The notes under the pieces were generated by a model. That model saw only the letters and a program-made list of their open reading frames with translations. It searched no databases and was not told the origin of the DNA. A stretch of DNA of 64,000 nt from NCBI GenBank assembly GCA_964016885.1, contig OZ024741.1, positions 260,276,001 through 260,340,000 on the forward strand. Direction: 5' to 3'. The position numbers and the translations under genes are program-made. The DNA is from Eledone cirrhosa. Lineage: Eukaryota. The first letter of the stretch is position 1; the number at the start of each line of letters is the position of its first letter. Below are positions 15,495 through 64,000 of the stretch, in pieces.

Positions 15495-15500
15495 TGAGGA

Positions 15501-15522: not shown

Positions 15523-18500
15523 AGTTTGAATCCCTAAAATGCGAGAAGTACCCAACCGATTTTTTTCAAACTTTACATGTGTATTACTTATGTTTCAGGG
15601 AGGGTTTGTTATGCACATAAAATTCAACCTTTTGATCTGGTGTTTTGACTTACGAGTCTTTCGATACGAGTGTTTCGACTTACGAGTGTTCTGACTTACG
15701 AGTGTTCTGACTTACGAGCGTTCTGACTTACGAGTGTTCCGACTTACGAGTGTTTCGGCTTACGAGTGTTTCGACTTACGAGTGATCTGACTTACGAGTG
15801 TTTCGACTTACGAGCGTTCCGAATTACGAGTGTTTCGGCTTACGAGTGTTCCGACTTACGAATGTTTCGACTTACGAGTGTTTCGGCTTACGAGTGTTTC
15901 GACTTACGAGTGTTCTGACTTACGAGTGTTCCGACTTACGAGCGTTCCGACTTACGAGTGTTTCGACTTACGAGTGTTAAGACTTACGGGTGTTTTGACA
16001 TACGAGTGTTTCGATACGAGTGTTTCGACTTACGAGTGTTACGAGTGTTCTGACTTACGAGTGTTTCGACTTACGAGTGTTCTGACCTACGAGTGTTCTG
16101 ACTTACGAGTGTTTCGACTAACGCGTGTTTTGACTTACGGATGTTTCGACTTACGAGTGTTTCGACTTACGAGTATTTCGAGTTACGAGTGTTTCGACTT
16201 ACGAGTGTTTTGACTTACGAATGTTCTGACTTACGGGTGTTTCGGCTTACGAGTGTTTCGACTAACGAGTGTTTTAACTTACGGGTGTTTCGACTTACAC
16301 GTGTTTCAACTTGCGAGTGTTTCGACTTACGAGTATTTCGACTTACGAGTGTTTCGACTTACGAGTGTTCTGACTTACGGGTGTTCCGACTTACGAGTGT
16401 TTCGGCTTACGATTATTTTGACTTGCGATTGTTTGGCTTACGAATGTTTCGACTTACGAGTGTTTCGACTTACGAGTGTTTTGACTTACGGTGTTTCGGC
16501 TTACGAGTGTTTCGACTTTCGAGTGTTTTGACTTACGGGTGTTTTGACATACGAGTGTTTCGATACGAGTGTTCTGACTTACGAGTGTTCTGACTTACGA
16601 GTGTTCTGACTTACGGGTGTTCTGACTTACGAGTGTTCCGACTTACGAGTGTTTCGGCTTATAAGGGTTTCGACTTACGAGTGCTTCGGCTTACGAGTGT
16701 TTCGACTTACGAGTGTTTCGGCTTACGAGTGTTTCGACTTACGAATGTTTTGGCTTACGAGTGTTTCGGCTTACGAGTGTTTCGACTTACGAGTGTTTCG
16801 TCTTACGAGTGTTTTGACTTACGGTGTTTCGGCTTACGAGTGTTTCGACTTACGAGTGTTTCGACTTACGAGTGTTTTGACTTACGAGTGTTTTGAATAA
16901 CGGTGTTTCTGCTTACGAGTGTTTCGACTTACGAGTCTTATGACTTACGGGTGATTTGACATACGAGTTTTTCGATACGAGTGTTTCGACTTACGAGTGT
17001 TTCGACTTACGAGTGTTTTTACTTACGAATGTTCTGAGTTACGGGTGTTTCGGCTTACGAGTGTTTCGACTTACGAGTGTTTTAACTTACGGGTGTTTCT
17101 ACTTACGCGTGTTTCGACTTGCAAGTGTTTCGACTTACGAGTGTTTCGACTTGCAAGTGTTTCGACTTATGAGTGTTTCGACTACAAATGTTCCGACTTA
17201 CGAGTGTTTCGACTTACGAGTGTTTCGACTTACTAATGTTCTTACTTACGAGTGTTTCGGCGTACGAGTGTTTCGACTTACTAATGTTCTTACTTACGAG
17301 TGTTTCGGCGTACGAGAGTTTTGACTTACGAGTGTTTCGACTTACGAGTGTTTCGACTTACAAGTGTTTTGACTTACGAATGTTTTGACTTACGGGTGTT
17401 TCGGCTTACGAGTGTTTCGATTTACGAGTCTTTCGGCTTACGAGTGTTTCGACTTACTAATGTTTTTACTTACGAGTGTTTCGATTTACGAGTCTTTCGA
17501 CTTACGAGTGTTTCGACTTACAAGTGTTTTGACTTACGAGTGTTCTGATTTACGGATGTTTCGACATACGAGTGTTTCGACTTACGAGTGTTTCGACTTA
17601 TGAGTGTTTCGACTTACGAGTGTTTCGACTTACGAGTGTTTCGGCTTATGAGTGTTTCGACTTACGAGTGTTTTGTCTTACGGTGTTTCGGCTTACGAGT
17701 GTTTCGACTTACGAGTGTTTTGACTTACGGGTGTTTTGACATACGAGTGTTTCGATACGAGTGTTCTGACTTACGAGTGTTCTGACTTACGAGTGTTTTG
17801 ACTCACGAGTGTTCTGACTTACGAGTGTTCCGACTTACGAGTGTTCCGACTTACGAGTGTTTCGGCTTACGAGTGTTTCCGGCTTACGAGTGTTTCGACT
17901 TACGAGTGTTTTGACTTACGGTGTTTCGGCTTACGAGTAATTCGACTTACGAGAGTTTTGACTTACGGGTGTTTTGACTTACGGGTGTTGTGAATTACGA
18001 GTGTTCCGATTTACGAGTGTTTTGACTTACGGTGTTTCGGCTTACGAGTGATTCGACTTACGAATGTTTTGACTTACGGGTGTTTCGGCTTGCGAGTGTT
18101 TCGACTTACGAGTGTTTCGGCTTATGAGTGTTTCGACTTACTAATGTTTTTACTTACGAGTGTTTCGGCGTACGAGTGTTTTGACTTACGAGTGTTTCGA
18201 TTTACGAGTGTTTCGGCTTGCGAGTGTTTCGACTTACTAATGTTTTTACTTACGAGTGTTTCGGCGTACGAGTGTTTTGACTCACGAGTGTTTTGACTTA
18301 AAGGTGTTTCGGCTTACGTGAGTTTCGACTTAAGAGTTTTCTGATTTACGAGTGTTCTGACTTGCGGGTGTTCTGATTTACGAGTGTTCCGACTTACGAG
18401 TGTTTCGGCTTATGAGTGTTTCGACTTACGAGTGTTTCGGCTTACGAGTGTTTCGACTTATGGGTGTTTCGACTTACGAGTGTTTTTACTTACGGTGTTT

Positions 18501-19433
18501 CGGCTTACGAGTGTTTCGACATACGAGTGTTTTGACTTACGGGTGTTTCGACTTACGAGTGTTTTGAATTACGAATGTTTTGACTTACGGGTGTTTCGGC
18601 TTACGAGTGTTTCGACTTACGAGTGTTTCGGCTTACGAGTGTTTCGATTTACTAATGTTCTAACTTACGAGTGTTTCGGCGTACGAGAGTTTTGACTTAC
18701 GAGTGTTTCGACTTACGAGTGTTTCGACTTACGAGTGTTTTGACTTACGAATGTTTTGACTTGCGGGTGTTTCGGCTTACGAGTGTTTCGACTTACGAGT
18801 CTTTCGGCTTACGAGTGTTTCGACTTACTAATGTTTTTACTTACGAGTGTTTCGGCGTACGAGTGTTTCGACTTACGAGTGTTTCGACTTACGGGTGTTT
18901 TGAATTACGGGTATTTCGGCTTACGAGTGTTTTGACTTACGAGTGTTTTGACTTAAGGGTGTTTCGACTTACGAGTGTTTCGACTTACGAGTGTTTCGGC
19001 TTACGAGTGTTTTGACTTAAGGAGGTTTCGACTTACGAGTGTTTCGATACGAGTGTTTCGACTTACGAGTGTTCTGACTTACGAGTGTTCTGATTTACGG
19101 ATGTTTCAACATACGAGTGTTTCGACTTACGAGTGTTTCGACTTACGAGTGTTTCCATACGAGTGTTTCGACTTACGAATGTTCTAACTTACGAGTGTTC
19201 TGACTTACGAGTGTTCTGACTTACGAGTGTTCTGACTTACGAGTGTTCTGTCTTACGAGTGTTCCGACTTACGAGTGTTCCGACTTACGAGTGTTTCGGC
19301 TTACGAGTGTTTCGGCTTACGAGTGTTTCGACTTACGAGTGTTTCGACTTATGAGTGTTCCGACTTACGGGTGTTTCGACTTACGAGTGTTTTGGCTTAC
19401 GGTGTTTCGGCTCACGAGTGTTTCGACTTACGA

Positions 19434-19502
19434 AAATAACAAATAGACGCGGTTTCAAATCTCTATGCTTTTCAAATTCATTACATTAATCTTTATTTAT
19501 AC
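19434..19502 (+). repeat. First copy of the 69-bp insert (allele A)
   Basis: Read directly; it replaces the GT of a monomer between TACGA and GTTTCG. Confidence 0.95.
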
Positions 19503-22500
19503 GTTTCGCTTTACGAGTGTTTCGACTTACGAGTCTTTCGACATACGAGTGTTTCAGCTTACGAGTGTTTTGATTTACGAGTGATTTGACTTACGGGTGT
19601 TTCGACTTACGCGTGTTTCGACTTACGAGTGTTTCGGCTATGAGTGTTTTGACTTACGGGTGTTTCGACTTACGGGTGTTTCGACTTACGAGTGTTTCGG
19701 CTTATGAGTGTTTCGACTTACGGGTGTTTTGACTTACGGGTGTTTTGACATACGAGTGTTTCGATACGAGTGTTCTGACTTACGAGTGTTCTGACTTACG
19801 AGTGTTCTCACTTACGGGTGTTCTGACTTACGGGTGTTTCGACTTACGAGTGTTTCGACTTACGAGTGTATCGGCTTACGAGTGTTTCGACTTACTAATG
19901 TTTTTACTTACGAGTGTTTCGGTGTACGAGTGTTTCGACTTAAGGATGTTTCGACTTACGAGTGTTTCGACTTCCGAGTTTTCCGACTTACGAGTGTTCC
20001 GACTTACGAGTGTTTCGGCTTACGAGTGTTTCGGATTACGAGTGTTTCGGCTTACGAGTGTTTTGACTTACGAGTGTTCTGACTACGAGTGTTCTGACTT
20101 ACGGGTGTTCTGACTTACGAGTGTTCCGACTTACGAGTGTTTCGGCTTATGAGTTTTTCGACTTACGGGCGTTTCGACTTACGGGTGTTTCGACTTACGA
20201 ATGTTTTGGCTTACGAGTGTTCTGACTTACGAGTTTTCCGACTTACGTCTGTTTCGACTTACGAGTGTTTTGACTTACGAGTGTTCCGACTTACGAGTGT
20301 TTCGGCTTACGGGTGTTTCGACGTACGAGTATTTTTGGCTTACGAGTGTTTCGACTTACGAGTGTTTTGAATTACGATTGTTTCGGCTTACGAGTGTTTC
20401 AACTTACGAGTATTTCGAATTACGAGTTTTTTTACTTACGGTGTTTCGGCTTACGAGTGTTTCGACTTACGAGTGTTTTGACTTACGGGTGTTTTGACAT
20501 ACGAGTGTTTCGATACGAGTGCTCTGACTTACGAGTGTTCTGACTTACGAGTGTTCTGACTTACGAGTGTTCTGACTTACGGGTGTTCTGACTTACGTGT
20601 GTTCCGACTTACGAGTGTTTCGGTTATGGGTGTTTCGACTTACGAGTGTTTCGACTTACGAATGTTTTGGCTTACGAGTGTTTCGGCTTACGAATGTTTC
20701 GACTTACGAATGTTTTGGCTTGCGAGTGTTTCGGCTTACGGGTGTTTCGACTTACGAGTGTTTCGACTTACGAGTGTTTTGACTTACGGTGTTTCGGCTT
20801 ACGATTTATTCGACATACGAGTGTTTCGACTTACGGGTGTTTCGACTTACGGGTGTTTCGACTTACGAGTGTTTCGACTTATGAGTGTTTCGACTTACGA
20901 GTGTTCTGACTTACGAGTGTTCTGACTTACGAGTGTTTCGGTTTACGAGTGTTTCGACATACGAGTGTTTTGACTTACGGGTGTTTCGACTTACGGGTGT
21001 TTCGACTTACGAGTGTTTCGGCTTACGAGTGTTTCGACTTACTAATGTTTTTACTTACGAGTGTTTCGGTGTACGAGTGTTTCGACTTAATGATGTTTCG
21101 ACTTGCGAGTGTTTCGACTTACGTGTGTTTCGGCTTACGTGAGTTTCGACTTAAGAGTGTTCTGATTTACGAGTGTTCTGACTTGCGGGTGTTCTGATTT
21201 ACGAGTGTTCCGACTTACGAGTGTTTCGGCTTATGAGTGTTTCGACTTACGAGTGTTTCGACTTACGAGTGTTTTTACTTACGGTGTTTCGGCTTACGAG
21301 TGTTTCGACATACGAGTGTTCAGACTTACGAGTGTTCCGACTTACGAGCGTTCCGACTTACGAGTGTTTCGACTTACGAGTGTTAAGACTTACGGGTGTT
21401 TTGACATACGAGTGTTTCGATACGAGTGTTTCGACTTACGAGTGTTACGAGTGTTCTGACTTACGAGTGTTCTGACTTACGAGTGTTCTGACTTACGAGT
21501 GTTCTGACTTACGAGCGTTCTGACTTACGAGTGTTCCGACTTACGAGTGTTTCGGCTTACGGGTGTTTTGACATACGAGTGTTTCGATACAAAGTGTTTC
21601 GACTTACGAGTGTTACGAGTGTTCTGACTTACGAGTGTTTCGACTTACGAGTGTTCTGACCTACAAGTGTTCTGACTTACGAGTGTTTCGACTTACGATT
21701 GTTTTTTTCACTTACGGGTGTTTCGACTTACGCGTGTTTCGATTTACGAGTGTTTAGACTTACGAGTGTTTCGACTACGAATGTTCCGACTTACGAGTGT
21801 TTCGACTTACGAGTGTTTCGACTTACGGGTGTTCCGACTTACGAGTGTTTCGGCTTACGATTGTTTCGACTTACGAGTGTTTCGGTTTACGAGTGTTTCG
21901 ACTTACGGGTGTTTTGACTTACGATTGTTTGGGCTTACGAATGTTTCGACTTACGAGTGTTTCAACTTACGAGTGTTTTGATTTACGGTGTTTCGGCTTA
22001 CGAGTGTTTTGACTTACGAGTGTTTTGACTTACGGGTGTTTTGACATACGAGTGTTTCGATACGAGTGTTCTGACTTACGAGTGTTCTGACTTACGAGTG
22101 TTCTGACTTACGAGTGTTCTGACTTACGAGTGGTCTGACTTACGGGTGTTCTGACTTACGAGTGTTCCGACTTACGAGTGTTTCAGCTTATGAGTGTTTC
22201 GACTTACGAGTGCTTCGGTTTACGAGTGTTTCGACTTACGAATTTTTCGGCTTACGAGTGTTTCGACTTACGAATGTTTTGGCTTACGAGTGTTTCGGCT
22301 TACGAGTGTTTCGGCTTATGAGTGTTTCGACTTACGAGTGTTTTGACTTATGGTGTTTCGGCTTACGAGTGTTTCGACATACGAGTGTTTTGACTTACGG
22401 GTGTTTCGACTTACGGGTGTTTCGACGTAAGAGTGTTTCGACTTACGAGCGCTTCGAGATACGAGTGTTTCGACTTACGAGTGTTTCGGCGTACGAGTGT

Positions 22501-24609
22501 TTTGACTTACGAGTGTTTCGACTTACGAGTGCTTTGACTTACGAATGTTTTGAATTACTTCGACTTACGAGTGATCTGACTTACGAGTGTTCCTACTTAC
22601 GAGTGTTTCGACTTACGAGTGTTTCGACTTGCGAGTGTTTCGACTTACGAGTGTTTCGACTTACGAGTGTTCTGACTTACGAGTGTTCTGACTTACGAGT
22701 GTTCTGACTTACGAGTGTTCCGACTTACGAGTGTTTCGACTTACGAGTGTTTTGACTTACGAATGTTCTGACTTACGGGTGTTTCGGCTTACGAGTGTTT
22801 CGACTTACGAGTGTTTTAGCTTACGGGTGTTTCGACTTACACGTGTTTCGGCTTGCGAGTGTTTCGACTTACGAGTATTTCGACTTACGAGTGTTTCGAC
22901 TTACGAGTGTTCTGACTTACGGGTGTTCCGACTTACGAGTGTTTCGGCTTACGATTATTTTAACTTGCGATTGTTTGGCTTACGAATGTTTCGACTTACG
23001 AGTGTTTCGACTTACGAGTGTTTTGACTTACGGTGTTTCGGCTTACGAGTGTTTCGACTTACGAGTGTTTTGACTTACGGGTGTTTTGACATACGAGTGT
23101 TTCGATACGAGTGTTCTGACATACGAGTGTTCTGACTTACGTGTTCCGACTTACGAGTGTTTCGGCTTATGAGGGTTTCGACTTACGAGTGCTTCGGCTT
23201 ACGAGTGTTTCGACTTACGAGTGTTTCGGCTTACGAGTGTTTCGACTTACGAATGTTTTGGCTTACGAGTGTTTCGGCTTACGAGTGTTTCGACTTACGA
23301 GTGTTTCGTCTTACGAGTGTTTTGACTTACGGTGTTTCGGCTTACGAGTGTTTCGACATACGAGTGTTTTGACGTACGGGTGTTTCGACTTACGGGTGTT
23401 TCGACTTAAGAGTGTTTCGACTTACGAGCGCTTCGACTTACGAGTGTTTCGACTTACGAGTGTTTCGGCGTACGAGTGTTTCGACTTACGAGTGTTTCGA
23501 CTTACGAGTGTTTCGACTTACGAGTGTTTCGACTTACGAGTGTTTTGACTTACGAGTGTTTTGACTAACGGTGTTTCTGCTTACGAGTGTTTCGACTTAC
23601 GAGCGTTGACTTACGGGTGTTTTGACATACGAGTATTTCGATACGAGTGTTTCGACTTACGAGTGTTACGAGTGTTCTGACTTACGAGTGTTTCGACTTA
23701 CGAGTGTTCTGACTTACGAGTGTTTCGACTTACGAGTGTTCTGACCTACGAGTGTTCTGACTTACGAGTGTTTCGACATACGAGTGTTTTGACTTACGGG
23801 TGTTTCGACTTACGAGTGTTTCGAGTTACGAGTGTTTCGAGTTACGAGTGTTTCGACTTACGAGTGTTTTTACTTACGAATGTTCTGAGTTACGGGTGTT
23901 TCGGCTTACGAGTGTTTCGACTTACGAGTGTTTTTACTTACGAATGTTCTGAGTTACGGGTGTTTCGGCTTACGAGTGTTTCGACTTACGAGTGTTTTAA
24001 CTTACGGCTGTTTCTACTTACGCGTGTTTCGACTTGCAAGTGTTTCGACTTACGAGTGTTTCGACTTGCAAGTGTTTCGATTACGAGTGTTTCGACTACA
24101 AATGTTCCGACTTACGAGTGTTTCGACTTAGGAGTGTTTCGACTTACGAGTGTTCTGACTTACGGGTGTTCCGACTTACGAGTGTTTCGATACGAGTGTT
24201 CTGTCTTACGAGTGTTCTGACTTACGAGTGTTCTGACTTACGAGTGTTCTGACTTACGGGTGTTCTGACTTACGAGTGTTCCGACTTACGAGTGTTTCGG
24301 CTTATGAGGGTTTCGACTTACGAGTGCTTCGGCTTACGAGTGTTTCGACCTACGAGTGTTTCGGCTTACGAGTGTTTTGACTTACGAATGTTTTGGCTTA
24401 CGAGTGTTTCGGCTTACGAGTGTTTCGAATTACGAGTGTTTCGACTTACGAGTGTTTTGACTTACGGTGTTTCGGCTTACGAGTGATCGACTTACGAGTG
24501 TTTTAACTTACGGGTGTTTCGACTTACGCGTGTTTCGACTTACGAATGTTCCGACTTACGAGTGTTTCGACTTACGAGTGTTTCGGCTTACGAGTGTTTC
24601 GACTTACGA

Positions 24610-24685
24610 AAATAACAAGTAGACGCGGTTTCAAATATCTTTTGAAAATGCTTTTCAAATTCATTACATTAATCTTTATTTATAC
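24610..24685 (+). repeat. 76-bp insert variant carrying an extra TTTGAAA (second copy at 32449..32524)
   Basis: Reads ...TTTCAAATATCT[TTTGAAA]ATGCTTTTCAAA... versus ...TTTCAAATATCTATGCTTTTCAAA in the other G-allele copies. Confidence 0.93.
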
Positions 24686-27600
24686 GTTTCGCTTTACGAG
24701 TGTTTCGGCGTACGAGTGTTTCGACTTACGAGTGTTTTGACTTACGGGTGTTTCGGCTTACGAGTGTTTCGACTTACGAGTGTTCTGACTTACGACTGTT
24801 CCGACTTACGAGCGTTCCGACTTACGAGTGTTTCGGCTTACGAGTGTTCCGACTTACGAGTGTTTCGACTTACGAGTGTTTTGACTTACGGTGTTTCGGC
24901 TTACGAGTGTTTTGACTTACGAGTGTTTTGACTTACGGGTGTTTTGACATACGAGTGTTTCGATACGAGTGTTCTGACTTACGAGTGTTCTGACTTACGA
25001 GTGTTCTGACTTACGAGTGTTCTGACTTACGAGTGGTCTGACTTACGGGTGTTCTTACTTACGAGTGTTTCAGCTTATGAGTGTTTCGACTTACGAGTGC
25101 TTCGGTTTACGAGTGTTTCGACTTACGAGTGTTTCGACTTACGAGTGTTTCGACTTACGAGTGTTTTGACTTACGAGTGTTTTGACTAACGGTGTTTCTG
25201 CTTACGAGTGCTTCGACTTACGAGTGTTATGACTTACGGGTGTTTTGACATACGAGTGTTTCGATACGAGTGTTTCGACGTACGAGTGTTACGAGTGTTC
25301 TGACTTACGAGTGTTCCGACTTACGAGTGTTCCGACTTACGAGTGTTTCGGCTTACGAGTGTTTCGGCTTACGAGTGTTTCGACTTACGAATGTTTTGAC
25401 ATACGAGTGTTCCGACTTATGGATGTTTCAACTTACGAGTGTTTTGGCTTACGGTGTTTCGGCTTACGAGTGTTTCGAGTTACGAGTGTTTTGACTTACG
25501 CGTGTTTTGACGTACGAGTGTTTCGATACGAGTGTTCTGACTTACGAGTGTTCTGACTTACGAGTGTTCTGACTTACGAATGTTCTGACTTACGAGTGTT
25601 CCGACTTTACGAGTGTTTCGGCTCACGAGTGTTTCGGCTTACGAGTGTTTCGACTTACGAAAATAACAAATAGACGCGGTTTCAAATCTCTATGCTTTTC
25701 AAATTCATTACATTAATCTTTATTTATACGTTTCGCTTTACGAGAGTTTCGGCTTACGAGTGTTTCGACATACGAGTGTTTCGGCTTAAGAGTTTTTTAT
25801 TTACGAGTGTTTTGACTTACGGGTGCTTCGACTTACGCGTGTTTCGACTTACGAGTGTTTCGACTTACGAGTGTTTCGACTTACGAGTGTTTCGGCTTAC
25901 GAGTGTTTTGACTTACGAATGTTTTGACTTACGATTGTTTCGGCTTACGAGTGTTTCGACTTACGAGTGTTTTGACTTACGAGTGTTTTGACTAACGGTG
26001 TTTTTGCTTACGAGTGTTTCGACTTACGAGCGTTGACTTACGGGTGTTTTGACATACGAGTGTTTCGATACGAGTGTTTCGACTTACGAGTGTTACGAGT
26101 GTTCTGACTTACGAGTGTTTCGACTTACGAGTGTTCTGACTTACGAGTGTTTCGACTTACGAGTGTTCTGACCTACGAGTGTTCTGACTTACGAGTGTTT
26201 CGACATACGAGTGTTTTGACTTACGGGTGTTTCGACTTACGAGTGTTTCGAGTTACGAGTGTTTCGAGTTACGAGTGTTTCGACTTACGAGTGTTTTTAC
26301 TTACGAATGTTCTGAGTTACGGGTGTTTCGGCTTACGAGTGTTTCGAATTACGAGTGTTTTAACTTACGGGTGTTTCTACTTACGCGTGTTTCGACTTGC
26401 AAGTGTTTCGACTTACGAGTGTTTCGACTTGCAAGTGTTTCGATTACGAGTGTTTCGACTACAAATGTTCCGACTTACGAGTGTTTCGACTTACGAGTGT
26501 TTCGACTTACGAGTGTTCTGCCTTACGGGTGTTCCGACTTACGAGTGTTTCGATACGAGTGTTCTGACCTACGAGTGTTCTGACTTACGAGTGTTCTGAC
26601 TTACGAGTGTTCTGACTTACGGGTGATCTGACTTACGAGTGTTCCGACTTACGAGTGTTTCGGCTTATGAGGGTTTCGACTTACGAGTGCTTCGGCTTAC
26701 GAGTGTTTCGAGCTACGAGTGTTTCGGCTTACGAGTGTTTTGACTTACGAATGTTTTGGCTTACGAGTGTTTCGGCTTACGAGTGTTTCGAATTACGAGT
26801 GTTTCGACTTACGAGTGTTTTGACTTACGGTGTTTCGGCTTACGAGTGTTTTGACTTAAGGAGGTTTCGACTTACGAGTGTTTCGATACGAGTGTTTCGA
26901 CTTACGAGTGTTCTGACTTACGAGTGTTCTGATTTACGGATGTTTCAACATACGAGTGTTTCGACTTACGAGTGTTTCGACTTACGAGTGTTTCCATACG
27001 AGTGTTTCGACTTACGAATGTTCTAACTTACGAGTGTTCTGACTTACGAGTGTTCTGACTTACGAGTGTTCTGACTTACGAGTGTTCTGTCTTACGAGTG
27101 TTCCGACTTACGAGTGTTCCGACTTACGAGTGTTTCGGCTTACGAGTGTTTCGGCTTACGAGTGTTTCGACTTACGAGTGTTTCGACTTATGAGTGTTCC
27201 GACTTACGGGTGTTTCGACTTACGAGTGTTTTGGCTTACGGTGTTTCGGCTCACGAGTGTTTCGACTTACGAAAATAACAAATAGACGCGGTTTCAAATC
27301 TCTATGCTTTTCAAATTCATTACATTAATCTTTATTTATACGTTTCGCTTTACGAGTGTTTCGACTTACGAGTCTTTCGACATACGAGTGTTTCAGCTTA
27401 CGAGTGTTTTGATTTACGAGTGATTTGACTTACGGGTGTTTCGACTTACGCGTGTTTCGACTTACGAGTGTTTCGGCTATGAGTGTTTTGACTTACGGGT
27501 GTTTCGACTTACGGGTGTTTCGACTTACGAGTGTTTCGGCTTATGAGTGTTTCGACTTACGGGTGTTTTGACTTACGGGTGTTTTGACATACGAGTGTTT

Positions 27601-47900: not shown

Positions 47901-48269
47901 GCTTACGAGTGCTTCGACTTACGAGTGTTATGACTTACGGGTGTTTTGACATACGAGTGTTTCGATAAGAGTGTTTCGACGTACGAGTGTTACGAGTGTT
48001 CTGACTTACGAGTGTTCCGACTTACGAGTGTTCCGACTTACGAGTGTTTCGGCTTACGAGTGTTTCGGCTTACGAGTGTTTCGACTTACGAATGTTTTGA
48101 CATACGAGTGTTCCGACTTATGGGTGTTTCAACTTACGAGTGTTTTGGCTTACGGTGTTTCGGCTTACGAGTGTTTCGAGTTACGAGTGTTTTGACTTAC
48201 GCGTGTTTTGACATACGAGTGTTTCGATACGAGTGTTCTGACTTACGAGTGTTCTGACTTACGAGTGTT

Positions 48270-52560: not shown

Positions 52561-55500
52561 GAGTGTTTCGAGTTACGAGTGTTTCGAGTTACGAGTGTTT
52601 CGACTTACGAGTGTTTTTACTTACGAATGTTCTGAGTTACGGGTGTTTCGGCTTACGAGTGTTTCGACTTACGAGTGTTTTAACTTACGGGTGTTTCTAC
52701 TTACGCGTGTTTCGACTTGCAAGTGTTTCGACTTACGAGTGTTTCGACTTGCAAGTGTTTCGATTACGAGTGTTTCGACTACAAATGTTCCGACTTACGA
52801 GTGTTTCGACTTACGAGTGTTTCGACTTACGAGTGTTCTGCCTTACGGGTGTTCCGACTTACGAGTGTTTCGATACGAGTGTTCTGACTTACGAGTGTTC
52901 TGACTTACGAGTGTTCTGACTTACGGGTGATCTGACTTACGAGTGTTCCGATTTACGAGTGTTTAGGCTTATGAGGGTTTCGACTTACGAATGTTTTGGC
53001 TTACGAGTGTTTCGGCTTACGAGTGTTTCGAATTACGAGTGTTTCGACTTACGAGTGTTCTGACTTACGACTGTTCCGACTTACGAGCGTTCCGACTTAC
53101 GAGTGTTTCGGCTTACGAGTGTTTCGAATTACGAGTGTTTCGACTTACGAGTGTTTTGACTTACGGTGTTTCGGCTTACGAGTGATCGACTTACGAGTGT
53201 TTTAACTTACGGGTGTTTCGACTTACGCGTGTTTCGACTTACGAATGTTCCGACTTACGAGTGTTTCGACTTACGAGTGCTTCGGCTTACGAGTGTTTCG
53301 ACTTACGAAAATAACAAGTAGACGCGGTTTCAAATATCTATGCTTTTCAAATTCATTACATTAATCTTTATTTATACGTTTCGCTTTACGAGTGTTTCGG
53401 CGTACGAGTGTTTCGACTTACGACTGTTTTGACTTACGTGTGTTTCGGCTTACGAGTGTTTTGACTTACGAGTGTTTTGACTTACGGGTGTTTCGGCTTA
53501 CGAGTGTTTCGACTTACGAGTGTTCTGACTTACGACTGTTCCGACTTACGAGCGTTCCGACTTACGAGTGTTTCGGCTTACGAGTGTTCCGACTTACGAG
53601 TGTTTCGACTTACGAGTGTTTTGACTTACGGTGTTTCGGCTTACGAGTGTTTTGACTTACGAGTGTTTTGACTTACGGGTGTTTTGACATACGAGTGTTT
53701 CGATACGAGTGTTCTGACTTACGAGTGTTCTGACTTACGAGTGTTCTGACTTACGAGTGTTCTGAGTTACGAGTGGTCTGACTTACGGGTGTTCTTACTT
53801 ACGAGTGTTTCAGCTTATGAGTGTTTCGACTTACGAGTGCTTCGGTTTACGAGTGTTTCGACTTACGAGTGTTTCGACTTACGAGTGTTTCGACTTACGA
53901 GTGTTTTGACTTACGAGTGTTTTGACTAACGGTGTTTCTGCTTACGAGTGCTTCGACTTACGAGTGTTATGACTTACGGGTGTTTTGACATACGAGTGTT
54001 TCGATACGAGTGTTTCGACTTACGAGTGTTACGAGTGTTCTGACTTACGAGTGTTCCGACTTACGAGTGTTCCGACTTACGAGTGTTTCGGCTTACGAGT
54101 GTTTCGGCTTACGAGTGTTTCGACTTACGAATGTTTTGACATACGAGTGTTCCGACTTATGGGTGTTTCGACTTACGAGTGTTTTGGCTTACGGTGTTTC
54201 AGCTTACGAGTGTTTCGAGTTACGAGTGTTTTGACATACGAGCGTTTCGATACGAGTGTTCTGACTGACGAGTGTTCTGACTTACGAGTGTTCTGACTTA
54301 CGAGTGTTCTGACTTACGAGTGTTCCGACTTTACGAGTGTTTCGGCTCACGATTGTTTCGGCTTACGAGTGTTTCGACTTACGAAAATAACAAATAGACG
54401 CGGTTTCAAATCTCTATGCTTTTCAAATTCATTACATTAATCTTTATTTATACGTTTCGCTTTACGAGTGTTTCGACTTACGAGTGTTTCGACATACGAG
54501 TGTTTCGGCTTAAGAGTTTTTTATTTACGAGTGTTTTGACTTACGGGTGCTTCGACTTACGCGTGTTTCGACGTACGAGTGTTTCGACTTACGAGTGTTT
54601 CGGCTTACGAGTGTTTTGACTTACGAATGTTTTGACTTACGATTGTTTCGGCTTACGAGTGTTTCGACTTACGAGTGTTCTGACTACGAGTGTTCTGACT
54701 TACGGGTGTTCTGACTTACGAGTGTTCCGACTTACGAGTGTTTCGGCTTATGAGTGTTTCGACTTACGAGTGCTTCGACTTACGAGTGTTTCGGCTTACG
54801 GGTGTTTCGACTTACGAATGTTTTTGCTTACGAGTGTTTCGATACGAGTGTTCTGACTTACGAGTGTTCTGACTTACGAGTGTTCTGACTTACGAATGTT
54901 CTGACTTACGAGTGTTCCGACTTTACGAGTGTTTCGGCTCACGAGTGTTTCGGCTTACGAGTGTTTCGACTTACGAAAATAACAAATAGACGCGGTTTCA
55001 AATCTCTATGCTTTTCAAATTCATTACATTAATCTTTATTTATACGTTTCGCTTTACGAGTGTTTCGACTTACGAGTGTTTCGACATACGAGTGTTTCGG
55101 CTTAAGAGTTTTTTATTTACGAGTGTTTTGACTTACGGGTGCTTCGAATTACGCGTGTTTCGACTTACGAGTGTTTCGACTTACGAGTGTTTCGACTTAC
55201 GAGTGTTTCGGCTTACGAGTGTTTTGACTTACGAATGTTTTGACTTACGATTGTTTCGGCTTACGAGTGTTTCGACTTACGAGTGTTTTGACTTACGAGT
55301 GTTTTGACTAACGGTGTTTCTGCTTACGAGTGTTTCGACTTACGAGCGTTGACTTACGGGTGTTTTGACATACGAGTGTTTCGATACGAGTGTTTCGACT
55401 TACGAGTGTTACGAGTGTTCTGACTTACGAGTGTTTCGACTTACGAGTGTTCTGACTTACGAGTGTTTCGACTTACGAGTGTTCTGACCTACGAGTGTTC

Positions 55501-57500
55501 TGACTTACGAGTGTTTCGACATACGAGTGTTTTGACTTACGGGTGTTTCGACTTACGAGTGTTTCGAGTTACGAGTGTTTCGAGTTACGAGTGTTTCGAC
55601 TTACGAGTGTTTTTACTTACGAATGTTCTGAGTTACGGGTGTTTCGGCTTACGAGTGTTTCGACTTACGAGTGTTTTAACTTACGGGTGTTTCTACTTAC
55701 GCGTGTTTCGACTTGCAAGTGTTTCGACTTACGAGTGTTTCGACTTGCAAGTGTTTCGATTACGAGTGTTTCGACTACAAATGTTCCGACTTACGAGTGT
55801 TTCGACTTACGAGTGTTTCGACTTACGAGTGTTCTGCCTTACGGGTGTTCCGACTTACGAGTGTTTCGATACGAGTGTTCTGACTTACGAGTGTTCTGAC
55901 TTACGAGTGTTCTGACTTACGAGTGTTCTGACTTACGGGTGATCTGACTTACGAGTGTTCCGACTTACGAGTGTTTCGGCTTATGAGGGTTTCGACTTAC
56001 GAGTGCTTCGGCTTACGAGTGTTTCGACCTACGAGTGTTTCGGCTTACGAGTGTTTTGACTTACGAATGTTTTGGCTTACGAGTGTTTCGGCTTACGAGT
56101 GTTTCGAATTACGAGTGTTTCGACTTACGAGTGTTTTGACTTACGGTGTTTCGGCTTACGAGTGATCGACTTACGAGTGTTTTAACTTACGGGTGTTTCG
56201 ACTTACGCGTGTTTCGACTTACGAATGTTCCGACTTACGAGTGTTTCGACTTACGAGTGCTTCGGCTTACGAGTGTTTCGACTTACGAAAATAACAAGTA
56301 GACGCGGTTTCAAATATCTATGCTTTTCAAATTCATTACATTAATCTTTATTTATACGTTTCGCTTTACGAGTGTTTCGGCGTACGAGTGTTTCGACTTA
56401 CGACTGTTTTGACTTACGTGTGTTTCGGCTTACGAGTGTTTTGACTTACGAGTGTTTTGACTTACGGGTGTTTCGGCTTACGAGTGTTTCGACTTACGAG
56501 TGTTCTGACTTACGACTGTTCCGACTTACGAGCGTTCCGACTTACGAGTGTTTCGGCTTACGAGTGTTCCGACTTACGAGTGTTTCGACTTACGAGTGTT
56601 TTGACTTACGGTGTTTCGGCTTACGAGTGTTTTGACTTACGAGTGTTTTGACTTACGGGTGTTTTGACATACGAGTGTTTCGATACGAGTGTTCTGACTT
56701 ACGAGTGTTCTGACTTACGAGTGTTCTGAGTTACGAGTGGTCTGACTTACGGGTGTTCTTACTTACGAGTGTTTCAGCTTATGAGTGTTTCGACTTACGA
56801 GTGCTTCGGTTTACGAGTGTTTCGACTTACGAGTGTTTCGACTTACGAGTGTTTTGACTTACGAGTGTTTTGACTAACGGTGTTTCTGCTTACGAGTGCT
56901 TCGACTTACGAGTGTTATGACTTACGGGTGTTTTGACATACGAGTGTTTCGATACGAGTGTTTCGACTTACGAGTGTTACGAGTGTTCTGACTTACGAGT
57001 GTTCCGACTTACGAGTGTTCCGACTTACGAGTGTTTCGGCTTACGAGTGTTTCGGCTTACGAGTGTTTCGACTTACGAATGTTTTGACATACGAGTGTTC
57101 CGACTTATGGGTGTTTCGACTTACGAGTGTTTTGGCTTACGGTGTTTCAGCTTACGAGTGTTTCGAGTTACGAGTGTTTTGACTTACGCGTGTTTTGACA
57201 TACGAGCGTTTCGATACGAGTGTTCTGACTTACGAGTGTTCTGACTTACGAGTGTTCTGACTTACGAGTGTTCTGACTTACGAGTGTTCCGACTTTACGA
57301 GTGTTTCGGCTCACGATTGTTTCGGCTTACGAGTGTTTCGACTTACGAAAATAAAAAATAGACGCGGTTTCAAATCTCTATGCTTTTCAAATTCATTACA
57401 TTAATCTTTATTTATACGTTTCGCTTTACGAGTGTTTCGACTTACGAGTGTTTCGACATACGAGTGTTTCGGCTTAAGAGTTTTTTTATTTACGAGTGTT
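51981..57500. repeat. ~3.0-kb tandem repeat, about 2 copies
   Basis: ORFs 52012/55008 and 52467/55463 (2996); inserts 51981/54977 (2996) and 53309/56289 (2980). Confidence 0.82.
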
Positions 57501-60199
57501 TTGACTTACGGGTGCTTCGACTTACGCGTGTTTCGACTTACGAGTGTTTCGACTTACGAGTGTTTCGGCTTACGAGTGTTTTGACTTACGAATGTTTTGA
57601 CTTACGATTGTTTCGGCTTACGAGTGTTTCGACTTACGAGTGTTCTGACTACGAGTGTTCTGACTTACGGGTGTTCTGACTTACGAGTGTTCCGACTTAC
57701 GAGTGTTTCGGCTTATGAGTGTTTCGACTTACGAGTGCTTCGACTTACGAGTGTTTCGGCTTACGGGTGTTTCGACTTACGAATGTTTTTGCTTACGAGT
57801 GTTTTGGCTTACGAGTGTTTCGGCTTATGAGTGTTTCGACTTACGAGTGTTTTGACTTACGGGTGTTTTGACATACGAGTGTTTCGATACGAGTGTTCTG
57901 ACTTACGAGTGTTTCCGCTTACGAGTGTTTCGGCTTACGAGTGTTTCGACTTACTAATGTTTTTACTTACGAGTGTTTCGGTGTACGAGTGTTTCGACTT
58001 AAGTATGTTCCGACTTACGAATGTTTCGGTTTACGAGTGTTTCGACACACGAGTGTTTTGACTTACGGGGGTTTCGACTTACGGGTGTTTCGACATACGA
58101 GTGTTTCGGCTTACGAGTGTTTCGACTTACTAATGTTTTTACTTACGAGTGTTTCGGTTTACGAGTGTTTCGACACACGAGTGTTTTGACTTACGGGGGT
58201 TTCGACTTACGGGTGTTTCGACATACGAATGTTTCGGTTTACGAGTGTTTCGACACACGAGTGTTTCGACTTAAGGCTGTTTCGACTTACGAGTGTTTCG
58301 ACTTAAGGGTGTTTTGACTTACGGGTGTTGTGAATTACGAGTGTTCCGATTTACGAGTGTTTTGACTTACGGTGTTTCGGCTTACGAGTTATTCGACTTA
58401 CGAATGTTTTGACTTACGGGATTTTCGGCTTGCGAGTGTTTCGACTAACTAGCGTTTCGGCTTATGAGTGTTTCGACTTACTAATGTTTTGACTTACGAG
58501 TGTTTCGGCGTACGAGTGTTTTGACTTACGAGTGTTTCGACTTACGAGTGTTTTGACTTACGAATGTTTTGACTTACGGGTGTTTCGGCTTACGAGTGTT
58601 TCGACTTACGAGTGTTTCGGCTGGCGAGTGTTTCGACTTACGAGTGTTTTGACTTAAGGGTGTTTCGACTTACGAGTGTTTAGACTTACGAGTGTTTCGA
58701 CTTACGAGTGTTTTGACTTATGGTGTTTCGGCTTACGAGTGTTTCGACATACGAGTGTTTTGACTTACGGGGGTTTCGACTTACGGGTGTTTCGACGTAA
58801 GAGTGTTTCGACTTACGAGCGCTTCGATTTACGAGTGTTTCGACTTACGAGTATTTCGGCGTACGAGTGTTTTGACTTACGAGTGTTTGGACTTACGAGT
58901 GCTTTGACTTACGAATGTTTTGAATTACTTCGACTTACGAGTGATCTGACTTACGAGTGTTCCTACTTACGAGTGTTTCGACTTACGAGTGTTTCGACTT
59001 GCGAGTGTTTCGACTTACGAGTGTTTCGACTTACGAGTGTTCTGACTTACGAGTGTTCTGACTTACGAGTGTTCTGACTTACGAGTGTTCCGACTTACGA
59101 GTGTTTCGACTTACGAGTGTTTTGACTTACGGGTGATTTGACTTACGGGTGTTTCGCCTTACGAGTGTTTCGACTTACGAGTGTTTTAACTTACGGGTGT
59201 TTCGACTTACGCGTGTTTCGACTTACGAGTGTTTCGACTTACGAGTGTTTCGACTTACGAATGTTCCGACTTACGAGTGTTTCTACTTACGAGTGTTTCG
59301 GCTTACGAGTGTTTCGACTTACGAAAATAACAAATAGACGCGGTTTCAAATATCTATGCTTTTCAAATCCATTACATTAATCTTTATTTATACGTTTCGC
59401 TTTACGAGTGTTTCGACTACGAATGTTCCGACTTACGAGTGTTTCGACTTACGAGTGTTTCGACTTACGAGTGCTTTGACTTACGAATGTTTTGACTTAC
59501 TTCGACTTACGAGTGATCTGACTTACGAGTGTTCCTACTTACGAGTGTTTCGACTTACGAGTGTTTCGACTTGCGAGTGTTTCGACTTACGAGTGTTTCG
59601 GCTTACGAGTGTTTCAGTGTTTCGGCTTACGTGTGTTTCGACTTACGAGTGCTTCGACTTACGAGTGTTTCGGCTTATGAGTGTTTCGACTTACGAGTGC
59701 TTCGGCTTACGAGTGTTTCGACTTACGAGTATTTCGGCTTACGAGTGTTTCGACGTACGAATGTTTTGGCTTACGAGTGTTTCGGCTTATGAGTGTTTCG
59801 ACTTACGAGTGTTTCGACTTACGAGTGTTTCGGCTTACGAGTGTTACGAGTGTTCTGACTTACGAGTGTTTCGATTTACGAGTGTTTAGACTTACGAGTG
59901 TTTCGACTACGAATGTTCCGACTTACGAGTGTTTCGACTTACGAGTGTTTCGACTTACGGGTGTTCCGACTTACGAGTGTTTCGGCTTACGATTGTTTCG
60001 ACTTACGAGTGTTTCGGTTTACGAGTGTTTCGACTTACGGGTGTTTTGACTTACGATTGTTTGGGCTTACGAATGTTTCGACTTACGAGTGTTTCGACTT
60101 ACGAGTGTTTTGACTTATGGTGTTTCGGCTTACGAGTGTTTTGACTTACGAGTGTTTTGACTTACGGGTGTTTTGACATACGAGTGTTTCGATACGAGT

Positions 60200-63100
60200 G
60201 TTCTGACTTACGAGTGTTCTGACTTACGAGTGGTCTGACTTACGGGTGTTCTGACTTACGAGTGTTCCGACTTACGAGTGTTTCAGCTTATGAGTGTTTC
60301 GACTTACGAGTGCTTCGGTTTACGAGTGTTTCGAGTTACGAGTGTTTCGGCTTACGAGTGTTTCGACTTACGAATGTTTTGGCTTACGAGTGTTTCGGCT
60401 TACGAGTGTTTCGGCTTATGAGTGTTTCGACTTACGAGTGTTTTGACTTATGGTGTTTCGGCTTACGAGTGTTTCGACTTACGGGTGTTTCAACGTAAGA
60501 GTGTTTCGACTTACGAGCGCTTCGACTTACGAGTGTTTCGACTTACGAGTGTTTCGGCGTACGAGTGTTTTGACTTACGAGTGTTTCGACTTACGAGTGC
60601 TTTGACTTACGAATGTTTTGAATTACTTCGACTTACGAGTGATCTGACTTACGAGTGTTCCTACTTACGAGTGTTTCGACTTACGAGTGTTTCGACTTGC
60701 GAGTGTTTCGACTTACGAGTGTTTCGACTTACGAGTGTTCTGACTTACGAGTGTTCTGACTTACGAGTGTTCCGACTTACGAGTGTTTCGACTTACGAGT
60801 GTTTTGACTTACGAATGTTCTGACTTACGGGTGTTTCGCCTTACGAGTGTTTTGACTTACGGGTGTTTCGACTTACGAGTGTTTCGACTTACGAGTATTT
60901 CGAGTTACGAGTGTTTCGACTTACGAGTGTTTTGACTTACGAATGTTCTGACTTACGGGTGTTTCGGCTTACGAGTGTTTCGACTTACGAGTGTTTTAAC
61001 TTACGGGTGTTTCGACTTACACGTGTTTCGGCTTGCTAGTGTTTCGACTTACGAGTATTTCGACTTACGAGTGTTTCGACTTACGGGTCTTCCGACTTAC
61101 GAGTGTTTCGGCTTACGATTATTTTGACTTGCGATTGTTTGGCTTACGAATGTTTCGACTTACGAGTGTTTCGACTTACGAGTGTTTTGACTTACGGTGT
61201 TTCGGCTTACGAGTGTTTCGACTTACGAGTGTTTTGACTTACGGGTGTTTTGACATACGAGTGTTTCGATACGAGTGTTCTGACTTACGAGTGTTCTGAC
61301 TTACGCGTGTTCTGACTTACGGGTGTTCTGACTTACGAGTGTTCCGACTTACGAGTGTTTCGGCTTATGAGGGTTTCGACTTACGAGTGCTTCGGCTTAC
61401 GAGTGTTTCGACTTACGAGTGTTTCGGCTTACGAGTGTTTCGACTTACGAATGTTTTGGCTTACGAGTGTTTCGGCTTACGAGTGTTTCGACTTACGAGT
61501 GTTTCGTCTTACGAGTGTTTTGACTTACGGTGTTTCGGCTTACGAGTGTTTCGACATACGAGTGTTTTGACGTAGGGTGTTTCGACTTACGGGTGATTCG
61601 ACTTAAGAGTGTTTCGACTTACGAGCGCTTCGATTACGAGGGTTTCGACTTACGAGTGTTTCGGCGTACGAGTGTTTCGACTTACGAGTGTTTCGACTTA
61701 CGAGTGTTTTGAATTACGGGTGTTTTGACTAACGGTGTTTCTGCTTACGAGTGTTTCGACTTACGAGTGTTATGACTTACGGGTGTTTTGACATACGAGT
61801 GTTTCGATACGAGTGTTTCGACTTACGAGGGTTACGAGTGTTCTGACTTACGAGTGTTCTGACTTACGAGTGGTCTGACTTTCGGGTGTTCTGACTTACG
61901 AGTGTTCCGACTTACGAGTGTTTCAGCTTATGAGTGTTTCGACTTACGAGTGCTTCGGTTTACGAGTGTTTCGAGTTACGAGTGTTTCGGCTTACGAGTG
62001 TTTCGACTTACGAATGTTTTGGCTTACGAGTGTTTCGGCTTACGAGTGTTTCGGCTTATGAGTGTTTCGACTTACGAGTGTTTTGACTTATGGTGTTTCG
62101 GCTTACGAGTGTTTCGACTTACGGGTGTTTCGACGTAAGAGTGTTTCGACTTACGAGCGCTTCGACTTACGAGTGTTTCGACTTACGAGTGTTTCGGCGT
62201 ACGAGTGTTTTGACTTACGAGTGTTTCGACTTACGAGTGCTTTGACTTACGAATGTTTTGAATTACTTCGACTTACGAGTGATCTGACTTACGAGTGTTC
62301 CTACTTACGAGTGTTTCGACTTACGAGTGTTTCGACTTGCGAGTGTTTTGACTTACGAGTGTTTCGACTTACGAGTGTTCTGACTTACGAGTGTTCTGAC
62401 TTACGAGTGTTCCGACTTACGAGTGTTTCGACTTACGAGTGTTTTGACTTACGAATGTTCTGACTTACGGGTGTTTCGCCTTACGAGTGTTTTGACTTAC
62501 GGGTGTTTCGACTTACGAGTGTTTTGACTTACGAATGTTCTGACTTACGGGTGTTTCGGCTTACGAGTGTTTCGACTTACGAGTGTTTTAACTTACGGGT
62601 GTTTCGACTTACACGTGTTTCGGCTTGCGAGTGTTTCGACTTACGAGTATTTCGACTTACGAGTGTTTCGACTTACGAGTGTTCTGACTTACGGGTGTTC
62701 CGACTTACGAGTGTTTCGGCTTACGATTATTTTGACTTGCGATTGTTTGGCTTACGAATGTTTCGACTTACGAGTGTTTCGACTTACGAGTGTTTTGACT
62801 TACGGTGTTTCGGCTTACGAGTGTTTCGACTTACGAGTGTTTTGACTTACGGGTGTTTTGACATACGAGTGTTTCGATACGAGTGTTCTGACTTACGAGT
62901 GTTCTGACTTACGAGTGTTCTGACTTACGGGTGTTCTGACTTACGAGTGTTCCGACTTACGAGTGTTTCGGCTTATGAGGGTTTCGACTTACGAGTGTTT
63001 CGGCTTACGAGTGTTTCGACTTACGAATGTTTTTGCTTACGAGTGTTTCGGCTTACGAGTGTTTCGACTTACGAGTGTTTCGTCTTACGAGTGTTTTGAC

Positions 63101-63450
63101 TTACGGTGTTTCGGCTTACGAGTGTTTCGACATACGAGTGTTTTGACGTAGGGTGTTTCGACTTACGGGTGTTTCGACTTAAGAGTGTTTCGACTTACGA
63201 GCGCTTCGACTTACGAGGGTTTCGACTTACGAGTGTTTCGGCGTACGAGTGTTTCGACTTACGAGTGTTTCGACTTACGAGTGTTTCGACTTACGAGTGT
63301 TTCGACTTACGAGTGTTTTGACTTACGAGTGTTTTGACTAACGGTGTTTCTGCTTACGAGTGTTTCGACTTACGAGTGTTATGACTTACGGGTGTTTTGA
63401 CATACGAGTGTTTCGATACGAGTGTTTCGACTTACGAGTGTTACGAGTGT
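60200..63450. repeat. ~1.6-kb tandem duplication in an insert-free part of satellite B
   Basis: ORFs 60262/61902 and 60422/62062 (1640), 61355/62963 (1608). The shared rare unit TTTGACGTAGGG occurs at ~61566 and ~63142. Confidence 0.82.
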
Positions 63451-64000
63451 TCTGACTTACGAGTGTTTCGACTTACGAGTGTTCTGACCTATGAGTGTTC
63501 TGACTTACGAGTGTTTCGACTTACGAGTGTTTTGACTTACGGGTGTTTCGAATTACGAGTGTTTCGAGTTACGAGTGTTTCGAGTTACGAGTGTTTCGAC
63601 TTACGAGTGTTTTTACTTACGAATGTTCTGAGTTGCGGGTGTTTCGGCTTACGAGTGTTTCGACTTACGAGTGTTTTAACTTACGGGTGTTTCTACTTAC
63701 GAGTGTTTCGACTTACGAGTGTTCTGACCTATGAGTGTTCTGACTTACGAGTGTTTCGACTTACGAGTGTTTCGACATGCAAGTGTTTCGACTTACGAGT
63801 GTTTCGACTACAAATGTTCCGACTTACGAGTGTTTCGACTTACGAGTGTTTCGACTTACGAGTGTTCTGACTTACGGGTGTTCCGACTTCGAGTGTTTCG
63901 GCTTACGATTGTTTTGACTTACGATTGTTTTGGCTTACGAATGTTTCGACTTACGAGTGTTTCGACTTACGAGTGTTTTGACTTACGAGTGTTTTGACTT

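What the first reader, a model, noticed from the sequence alone, without database searches (positions are those of the whole stretch)
15638..64000. Satellite B monomer looks like an amplified Tigger/pogo-type transposon sub-terminal repeat
Seen: the monomer is GACTTACGAGTGTTTC and the array begins ...ATCTGGTGTTTTGACTTACGAG. Recalled, not searched: pogo/Tigger-family MITE ends read approximately CAGTGGTGCCTTGACTTACGAG, followed by two or three ~16-bp '(T)TCGACTTACGAG'-type subrepeats thought to be transposase-binding sites. The array start (TGGTGttTTGACTTACGAG) differs from that recalled end at only two positions. Inference: a transposase-binding repeat expanded ~3000-fold. Because CENP-B and the TIGD proteins are domesticated pogo transposases, it could act as a binding platform or sink for such proteins.
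Basis: partly seen in the sequence, partly recalled or inferred. Interest (0 to 1): 0.75.

Follow-up and report, generated by a model that had tools for sequence, protein, structure and literature searches.

The report
Tigger-end motif amplified via a Helitron
This is a real 16-letter DNA repeat, about 6-7 million letters in all by estimate, that very likely grew out of a tiny repeat inside a rolling-circle jumping gene, which in turn likely picked it up from the presumed protein-binding end of a cut-and-paste jumping gene; whether any protein binds it is untested.

Summary
The array is real (16-bp period, ~3,050 copies), part of an estimated 6-7 Mb satellite lying mostly in one block on C2. 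The genome holds Tigger/pogo elements with TA|CAG ends (64 hits, control 0) whose left end has three 16-bp units; the satellite monomer is their best possible consensus (37/48). But the array is not an expanded Tigger end. Its start here is a Helitron fragment joined to a monomer, and no Tigger terminus precedes satellite units. The immediate source is a 2-7-unit repeat inside a dispersed non-autonomous Helitron module (45/48). That module's upstream flank recurs 25 times in this window, intermediates of 14 and ~210 units exist, and the C2 block begins at the module's 5' end. Likely path: Tigger end, captured by a Helitron, then neutral expansion. Binding is untested; no intact transposase of the matching family was seen, but a single-copy intact gene of the clade exists. 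The scan noted the same origin before, elsewhere in this array (e1-10323866).

The parts
15640..64000 (+). Satellite B array, 16-bp monomer, running off the window end; part of a block at C2 ~254.7-263.1 Mb
   Evidence: TRF; monomer table; extent sampled
15362..15637 (+). Internal fragment of non-autonomous Helitron H2 (my label); the tail of the 717-814-bp H1-3'/H2 spacer that recurs every few kb in parts of the C2 array
   Evidence: 51 matches, all at C2 256.8-261.7 Mb, 40 of 1,823 candidates scored; spacer map; 2,227 hits of a 30-base pattern genome-wide; junction compared with a dispersed H2 copy
15638..15639 (+).
19439..19507 (+). First of 25 copies of the ~70-bp upstream flank of Helitron module H1 embedded in the array, each followed by H1's first repeat unit
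   Evidence: 25 copies starting at 19439, 24615, 25666 ... 57354, 59330; 68-70 of 74 bases identical to a dispersed H1 copy in 23 of 25, the other two carry an insertion
1..15353 (+). Satellite A (39-bp), a neighbouring, unrelated array interleaved with B across the C2 block (context only)
   Evidence: TRF; B-to-A junctions elsewhere; 27,189 pattern hits, none before C2:254.3 Mb

Best explanation
Satellite B is a multi-megabase tandem array that very likely expanded from a 2-7-unit repeat inside a dispersed non-autonomous Helitron module, and that small repeat was likely captured from the three presumed transposase-binding units at the left end of a resident Tigger/pogo transposon. Step 1 (inferred): a Helitron took up about 50-60 bp of a Tigger left end without its outer CAG terminus, and slippage made the units alike. 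Step 2 (shown as a size series; order inferred): the unit number varies between dispersed copies (2-7, one of 14, one ~4-kb array). Step 3 (inferred): at one copy on C2, blocks of [5' flank + many units] and [units + 3' flank + H2 piece] were multiplied by unequal exchange or rolling-circle read-through to give ~6-7 Mb, with offshoots on C1 and C2. The array most likely behaves as ordinary heterochromatic satellite; it cannot be cut out as a Tigger because it has no terminus.
For: Helitron source: 31 of 31 dispersed H1 copies examined carry the repeat after the upstream flank (20 with 4 units, 7 with 3, 3 with 2, 1 with 7, last partial unit counted). Monomer x3 vs H1 repeat 45/48. Upstream flank 25 times in the window and 2,101 times genome-wide, 51 of the first 100 listed being dispersed. 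Downstream flank starts the array spacer at 92% mean identity to 23 dispersed copies. The C2 block starts at an H1 5' end at 254.735 Mb. Intermediates: 14 units between intact H1 ends at C2:80.56 Mb, ~210 units ending in the H1 3' flank at C2:240.96 Mb. Helitron identity: H2 has A|TC and CTAG|T ends and PIF1 helicase pieces behind an H2 5' end (E 8.5e-23). Tigger homology: 37/48 equals the maximum attainable, P about 1e-9 per register and 3e-8 over 32 registers; 0 of 1,000 shuffles reach it on each of 4 real copies, while three other Tigger families score 23-24, the shuffle level. Sister family T3, found by protein similarity rather than by motif, scores up to 36/48. Direction: sister families T1, T2 and T3 all carry the three-core layout at their ends and T1 is older than H1 (86% vs 95% pairwise identity).
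Against: No donor Tigger end identical to the H1 repeat was found: H1 vs T1 is only 34/48 and two looser searches found no closer family. Homology does not clearly extend beyond the units into flanks, and no H1 relative lacking the repeat was found (all 10 hits carry it directly or through a nested H1 copy), so capture is not directly seen. T1 was found with a pattern holding the monomer core, and its 48-bp majority rests on 9 of 20 left ends chosen for in-register cores, so the P value needs a multiple-testing factor; 10^4 families would still leave about 3e-4. H1 is not a free-standing textbook Helitron: its 5' TC follows G in 24 of 30 copies and its 3' end abuts another Helitron's TC in 30 of 30. 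The C1 array has non-Helitron satellites at both ends.
Confidence: 0.72

Rival explanations
1. The Helitron's internal repeat arose from the Helitron's own sequence and resembles the Tigger units only by chance; the satellite has no Tigger ancestry.
For: The H1 region is full of short degenerate repeats sharing a few bases with the monomer; no flank homology to Tigger and no exact donor.
Against: Both the 12-15-bp core and the 16-bp period match; score is the attainable maximum, 3e-8 before multiple testing; unrelated Tigger families score at shuffle level; the usual H1 form has three complete cores, as the Tigger left end does.
Confidence: 0.14
2. The array expanded directly from a Tigger sub-terminal repeat; Helitron pieces entered later or the Helitron captured units from the satellite.
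For: The majority monomer matches T1 slightly better (37/48) than the H1 repeat as a whole does (34/48).
Against: No TIR at any array end examined; TIR plus two B-type units not found outside arrays (9 hits: 1 ordinary T1 copy, 8 array variants); H1 flanks sit in their native order and register throughout both arrays; the C2 block begins at an H1 5' end.
Confidence: 0.04
3. Same origin as the best explanation, but the array is kept or used as a binding platform or sink for a Tigger-clade helix-turn-helix protein, in the manner of CENP-B boxes.
For: Each monomer equals the consensus Tigger unit. A single-copy, uninterrupted 585-aa gene of the same clade, without detected TIRs, lies at C12:44.61 Mb (next DNA match 76% and broken) and shares the STICTIL and ASRGWF helix motifs with T1/T3. 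T3 copies keep 510-514-aa frames covering both HTH domains. The core CpG is 95-98% conserved while the first CpG's C is 65%, a weak hint.
Against: No binding, chromatin or expression data. B was located only on C2 and in 97 kb of C1, and these roughly account for the genome-wide count, so it is not pan-centromeric as far as seen. T1-type matches all have open frames under about 280 aa. The C12 protein is only 47-52% identical to T1/T3 in the N-terminal region. For plant Lemi1 the TIR is the primary determinant and subterminal binding follows it (PMC1636448, passages), and the array lacks the outer TIR. Founder effects can explain the CpG pattern.
Confidence: 0.1

Closest known systems
Satellites derived from central tandem repeats of non-autonomous Helitron/Helentron elements (DINE-TR1 of Drosophila; Cg_HINE/Cg170 of Pacific oyster)
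   Same: Short variable array inside a non-autonomous rolling-circle element with a GTCY-type microsatellite near the 5' end; element-borne, intermediate and free arrays coexist (PMC7492417 and PMC12628747, passages read).
   Different: Monomer is 16 bp rather than 140-180 bp; carrier has TC/CTAG Helitron-type ends rather than HINE subterminal inverted repeats and oligo-T targets; monomer matches the end units of a different superfamily; the free array is several Mb.
pogo/Tigger (TIGD1-like clade) DNA transposons and their MITEs
   Same: TA|CAG...CTG|TA ends, repeated sub-terminal units at both ends, HTH_Tnp_Tc5 and DDE-type transposase; clade label from named homologs. Repeated end motifs bind transposase in the pogo-like Lemi1/Emigrant pair (PMC1636448, passages).
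   Different: The satellite has only the unit: no terminus, no inverted arrangement, no TA duplication, no coding sequence.
MITE- or foldback-derived satellites (miDNA4 and Xstir of Xenopus; Tetris of Drosophila virilis)
   Same: Satellite monomer traceable to a DNA transposon (described or cited in PMC12628747, passages).
   Different: There the same element supplies and carries the repeat; here a second, unrelated element (Helitron) is the carrier.
CENP-B / CENP-B box in alpha satellite
   Same: pogo-derived HTH proteins can be domesticated to bind satellite DNA (PMC4231638, abstract).
   Different: No binding shown, no pan-chromosomal distribution seen; CENP-B box likeness was not tested here.

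Membership tests
Satellite DNA | Long head-to-tail array of a short monomer, non-coding | tested here: met
   3,054 copies in the window; longest stop-free frame 194 aa; estimated 5.8-6.7 Mb genome-wide
pogo/Tigger element (is the array itself one?) | Terminal inverted repeats starting CAG, flanked by TA | tested here: not met
   No CAG/TA at the array start, none at other array ends read, no inverted monomer in the window
pogo/Tigger element (dispersed family T1) | TA|CAG...CTG|TA ends | tested here: met
   64 hits vs 0 control; 8 of 11 distinct two-ended elements exact
pogo/Tigger element (dispersed family T1) | Transposase with HTH and DDE domains | tested here: inconclusive
   HTH_Tnp_Tc5 E 8.3e-6 in a broken copy; only broken frames seen for T1; sister T3 has 510-514-aa frames
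Tigger sub-terminal unit (homology of the monomer) | Same core and same spacing as the repeated end units | tested here: met
   37/48, the maximum; 0 of 1,000 shuffles on 4 copies; other families at shuffle level
Tigger sub-terminal unit (homology of the monomer) | Bound by the cognate transposase | not testable with these tools
   Needs EMSA or ChIP
Tigger sub-terminal unit (homology of the monomer) | Hit to a curated TcMar-Tigger entry in Dfam or Repbase | not testable with these tools
Helitron (element H2) | 5' TC and 3' CTAG/CTRR, inserted between A and T | tested here: met
   Of 25 rows, 14 follow A (12 distinct; 9 with exact TC), 10 follow an H1 end, 1 other; 22 of 22 with a 3' end are followed by T; criteria from PMC2267711 (passages)
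Helitron (element H2) | Hairpin 10-15 bp before the 3' end | tested here: inconclusive
   A 6-pair hairpin forms at the right place but z is only -0.96
Helitron (element H2) | Link to a RepHel-coding partner | tested here: met
   PIF1 helicase pieces (E 8.5e-23, 6.9e-10) downstream of an H2 5' end in L146; one locus, broken frames
Helitron (module H1, the repeat carrier) | 5' TC, 3' palindrome and CTAG | tested here: met
   5' TC in 30 of 31, 3' CTAG in 30 of 31; palindrome z -6.2, though CTAG lies within its stem
Helitron (module H1, the repeat carrier) | Free-standing insertion between A and T | tested here: not met
   Preceded by G in 24 of 30 (another module) and followed by another Helitron's TC in 30 of 30; it moves as part of composite Helitrons; head-to-tail CTAG-TC junctions are described in PMC2267711 (passage)
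Centromeric / CENP-B-box satellite | Present at the centromeres of all or most chromosomes and occupied by CENP-A/CENP-B-type proteins | tested here: inconclusive
   Located only on C2 and C1; 25 of 25 perfect hexamers on C2; other contigs not listed individually; occupancy not testable

The most novel reading that the evidence does not exclude
A transposase-binding unit was passed from a Tigger to a Helitron and blown up into roughly 400,000 tandem sites, which are now bound by a resident Tigger-clade protein (the intact single-copy C12 gene or T3 transposase fragments): a CENP-B/CENP-B-box-like pairing, or a transposase sink, caught as it arises on one chromosome.
Probability: 0.1. Interest if true: 0.8.

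Novelty: new variant of a known kind. Interest (0 to 1): 0.4.

Why it matters
Satellites growing from Helitron internal repeats are documented, so the main mechanism is not new. What this case adds is a complete size series in one assembly (2-7, 14, ~210 units, 97 kb, several Mb) and a likely two-superfamily relay in which the monomer is a single Tigger end unit. I did not see such a case in the listings of my paper searches (the library lacks most subscription journals). If a resident pogo-derived protein binds the array, it would give a testable model for how CENP-B-like protein and satellite pairs originate, with a named candidate gene.

Tried and rejected
Array start as a TIR remnant: rejected. 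TIR followed by two B-type units: 9 hits, none an intermediate. A closer Tigger donor: a looser TIR pattern gave 43 hits against 4 control hits, 36 of them array variants and one a sister family T2 that matches B worse (27/48); a CpG-decay-tolerant pattern gave 0. Pre-capture Helitron without the repeat: not found among 10 hits. Coding potential of B: none. Sequencing-run search: no RNA holder listed, which is no evidence on expression; 20 rows from 17 studies hold some words, three other organisms at shares 0.21-0.26 and the rest below 0.2; none was laid, so what flanks the motif in those organisms remains open and is not used as evidence. The TIR-like 19-bp satellite on C1/C5: a TA|CAG pattern gave 2 hits, both inside its own array, control 1, and no dispersed hit precedes the C1 array, so no Tigger origin is shown for it. 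Satellite A: no hit before C2:254.3 Mb, origin unresolved. Earlier-finding look-ups by place and by sequence returned nothing. The pogo 12-bp binding paper (PMC148200) is not held; I saw only its title in a reference list. No supplements were read. The organism was not identified and is not needed for the verdict.
Full report
Observation. The window is C2:260,276,001-260,340,000 of a 3.0-Gb animal assembly. It holds a 39-bp satellite A (2-15353), a ~285-bp stretch, and satellite B (15640-64000; period 16, 3053.8 copies). 2,626 in-register monomers average 90.5% identity to the majority monomer. B has kb-scale duplications, no long frame, and no reverse-complement monomer in the window. The labels T1-T3, H1 and H2 below are mine.

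Extent. A degenerate dimer has 56,702 exact hits; scaled by window density this is 5.8-6.7 Mb, or roughly 400,000 monomers. Sampling places B at C2 ~254.735-263.085 Mb, interleaved with satellite A and non-satellite blocks and inverted at about 258.9-260.1 Mb. A second 97-kb array lies at C1:279.297-279.393 Mb among unrelated 11-, 19-, 20- and 25/27-bp satellites. All 25 perfect hexamers are on C2. Other contigs were not listed individually, so confinement is likely, not shown.

The Tigger family exists. A TA|CAG pattern ending in the monomer core gave 64 dispersed hits, control 0. Of 30 loci read, 15 showed a second end within reach, representing 11 distinct elements, mostly 570-620 bp; 8 of 11 have exact TACAG...CTGTA ends. 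They are deletion derivatives of a transposase gene (HTH_Tnp_Tc5). The left end has three cores at offsets 0, 16 and 32, and the right end two inner cores 16 bp apart. Three monomers match the T1 left end at 37/48, the highest any 16-mer could reach; P is about 1e-9 per register, 3e-8 over both strands and all rotations. On four real copies that I picked as free of indels the score is 36-37 with 0 of 1,000 shuffles reaching it; a copy with an indel scores 30, 0 of 3,000. Three other Tigger families score 23-24. Caveats: T1 was found with the core in the pattern and its majority rests on 9 of 20 left ends; a factor of 10^4 families still leaves about 3e-4. Sister family T3 was found by protein search and scores up to 36/48; sister T2 has the same layout but scores 27.

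But the array did not grow from a Tigger end. At the window's array start, 15630-15637 is the Helitron H2 sequence, 15640 onward is a monomer variant, and only two bases are left; the same junction is copied in all 52 instances read. No array end examined has a TIR, and a TIR followed by two B-type units was not found outside arrays.

The immediate source is a Helitron. The 285-bp stretch is the tail of a 717-814-bp spacer that recurs after every 2-5 kb of B in parts of the C2 block. Its second half is a dispersed family H2 (2,227 hits) with A|TC and CTAG|T ends and, in one locus, PIF1 helicase pieces, meeting the Helitron criteria in PMC2267711 (passages); its end hairpin is weak. Two dispersed places among those 30 loci also matched the first half of the spacer and the B flank. 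Reading them showed a module H1: TC start, GTCT microsatellite, a ~70-bp flank, a few B units, the spacer's first half, a strong palindrome and CTAG. All 31 dispersed copies examined carry the repeat, with 2-7 units; it matches three monomers at 45/48. The 70-bp upstream flank, followed by H1's first unit, interrupts this window's array 25 times and also the C1 array. The C2 block opens with an H1 5' end, slightly damaged, that already has the small deletion seen at the internal junctions. Intermediates are a 14-unit copy between intact H1 ends and a ~4-kb, ~210-unit array with six upstream flanks ending in the 3' flank. H1 is modular: it is followed by another Helitron's TC in 30 of 30 copies.

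Mechanism. Shown: identity of the monomer with the H1 repeat, native flanks in the arrays, the size series, and the non-chance match to Tigger units. Inferred: capture of a Tigger left-end piece by the Helitron (direction from the layout being shared by three sister Tigger families at their ends and T1 being older, 86% vs 95%), slippage, then block amplification by unequal exchange or rolling-circle read-through of 5' parts, a route reviewed in PMC12628747 (passages). Not found: an exact donor, flank homology or a pre-capture Helitron.

Binding. A CENP-B_N search gave 70 matches, 150 of 276 candidates scored, from several Tigger families with different ends; the same search also rings in 2 of 14 control genomes. 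A T1 protein search gave 165 matches, 150 of 460 scored: T1-type frames are all under about 280 aa, T3-type reach 510-514 aa but are incomplete. One uninterrupted 585-aa frame at C12:44.61 Mb has no TIR detected nearby, retains the three acidic motifs, is single-copy at high identity with broken 66-76% relatives, and has an unnamed 79% homolog and TIGD1-like named homologs at 65-70% in crabs, scorpions, bats and lizards. It shares the two helix motifs but is only 47-52% identical to T1/T3 in the N-terminal region. A second TIR-less 553-aa TIGD-like frame lies at C6:60.69 Mb. In the Lemi1/Emigrant system the TIR is the primary determinant of binding (PMC1636448, passages), and B lacks the outer TIR. 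Nothing here shows binding; I put it at about 0.1.

Comparison. It works like DINE-TR1 and Cg_HINE-derived satellites (PMC7492417, passages) and belongs to that kind. It is not a Tigger element. Domestication of pogo transposases is established (PMC4231638, abstract only). My searches (listings only, plus passages of PMC5139131) showed no satellite whose monomer is one Tigger end unit carried by a Helitron; the library is incomplete. An earlier unreviewed scan note on the same array 5.4 Mb upstream reached the same origin; I had written this reading down before seeing it, and it is not independent support.

Verdict. Real feature; Helitron as immediate source about 0.93; Tigger ancestry of the unit about 0.8; function most likely neutral heterochromatin. 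New variant of a known kind, interest 0.4.

Noticed in passing
G000:C1:279.288-279.61 Mb (L112-L119): A cluster of at least five unrelated short-monomer satellites (11/33, 16, 19, 20, 25/27 bp) side by side, the 20-bp one with frequent inversions; looks like a pericentromeric satellite library.
   Followed up: partly
L116, L117, L162, L163 (C1:279.41 Mb; C5:59.79 Mb): A 19-bp satellite (38,334 pattern hits) whose monomer resembles the outer part of a Tigger TIR (T2-like); no dispersed progenitor found.
   Followed up: partly
window 1-15353 and C2 254.3-263.1 Mb: Satellite A (39 bp) is interleaved with B over about 9 Mb; it has stop-free frames up to 2,176 codons from its low-complexity composition and no hit before C2:254.3 Mb. 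Origin unknown.
   Followed up: partly
L380 / G000:C12:44,607,826-44,609,670: Single-copy uninterrupted 585-aa TIGD1-like gene without detected TIRs, a candidate domesticated transposase.
   Followed up: partly
L295 / G000:C6:60.688-60.690 Mb; L294 / C2:338.946-338.948 Mb: A 553-aa TIGD-like frame without detected TIRs, and a 598-aa near-complete transposase frame of another Tigger family.
   Followed up: no
G000:C25:19.2-25.4 Mb: Dozens of T1 Tigger copies are concentrated in a few Mb of C25, apparently multiplied within a larger segmental or tandem repeat.
   Followed up: no
L071 / G000:C2:351.576-351.583 Mb: A T1 Tigger copy interrupted by a ~4-kb broken LTR-retrotransposon-like insert.
   Followed up: no
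dispersed H1 copies (L164-L180, L225-L227, L234-L243): H1's 3' CTAG is followed directly by the 5' TC of varying other Helitrons in 30 of 30 copies, with no host A between; composite Helitrons built from interchangeable modules.
   Followed up: partly
window 15640-64000: The CpG in the TACGAG core is 95-98% conserved whereas the first CpG's C is only 65%; founder effect or constraint, unexplained.
   Followed up: no
L072, L073 (C2:257.429 and 261.669 Mb): Two array ends 4.2 Mb apart share the same breakpoint and nearly identical LINE-like flanking sequence, implying a large duplication within the block.
   Followed up: no
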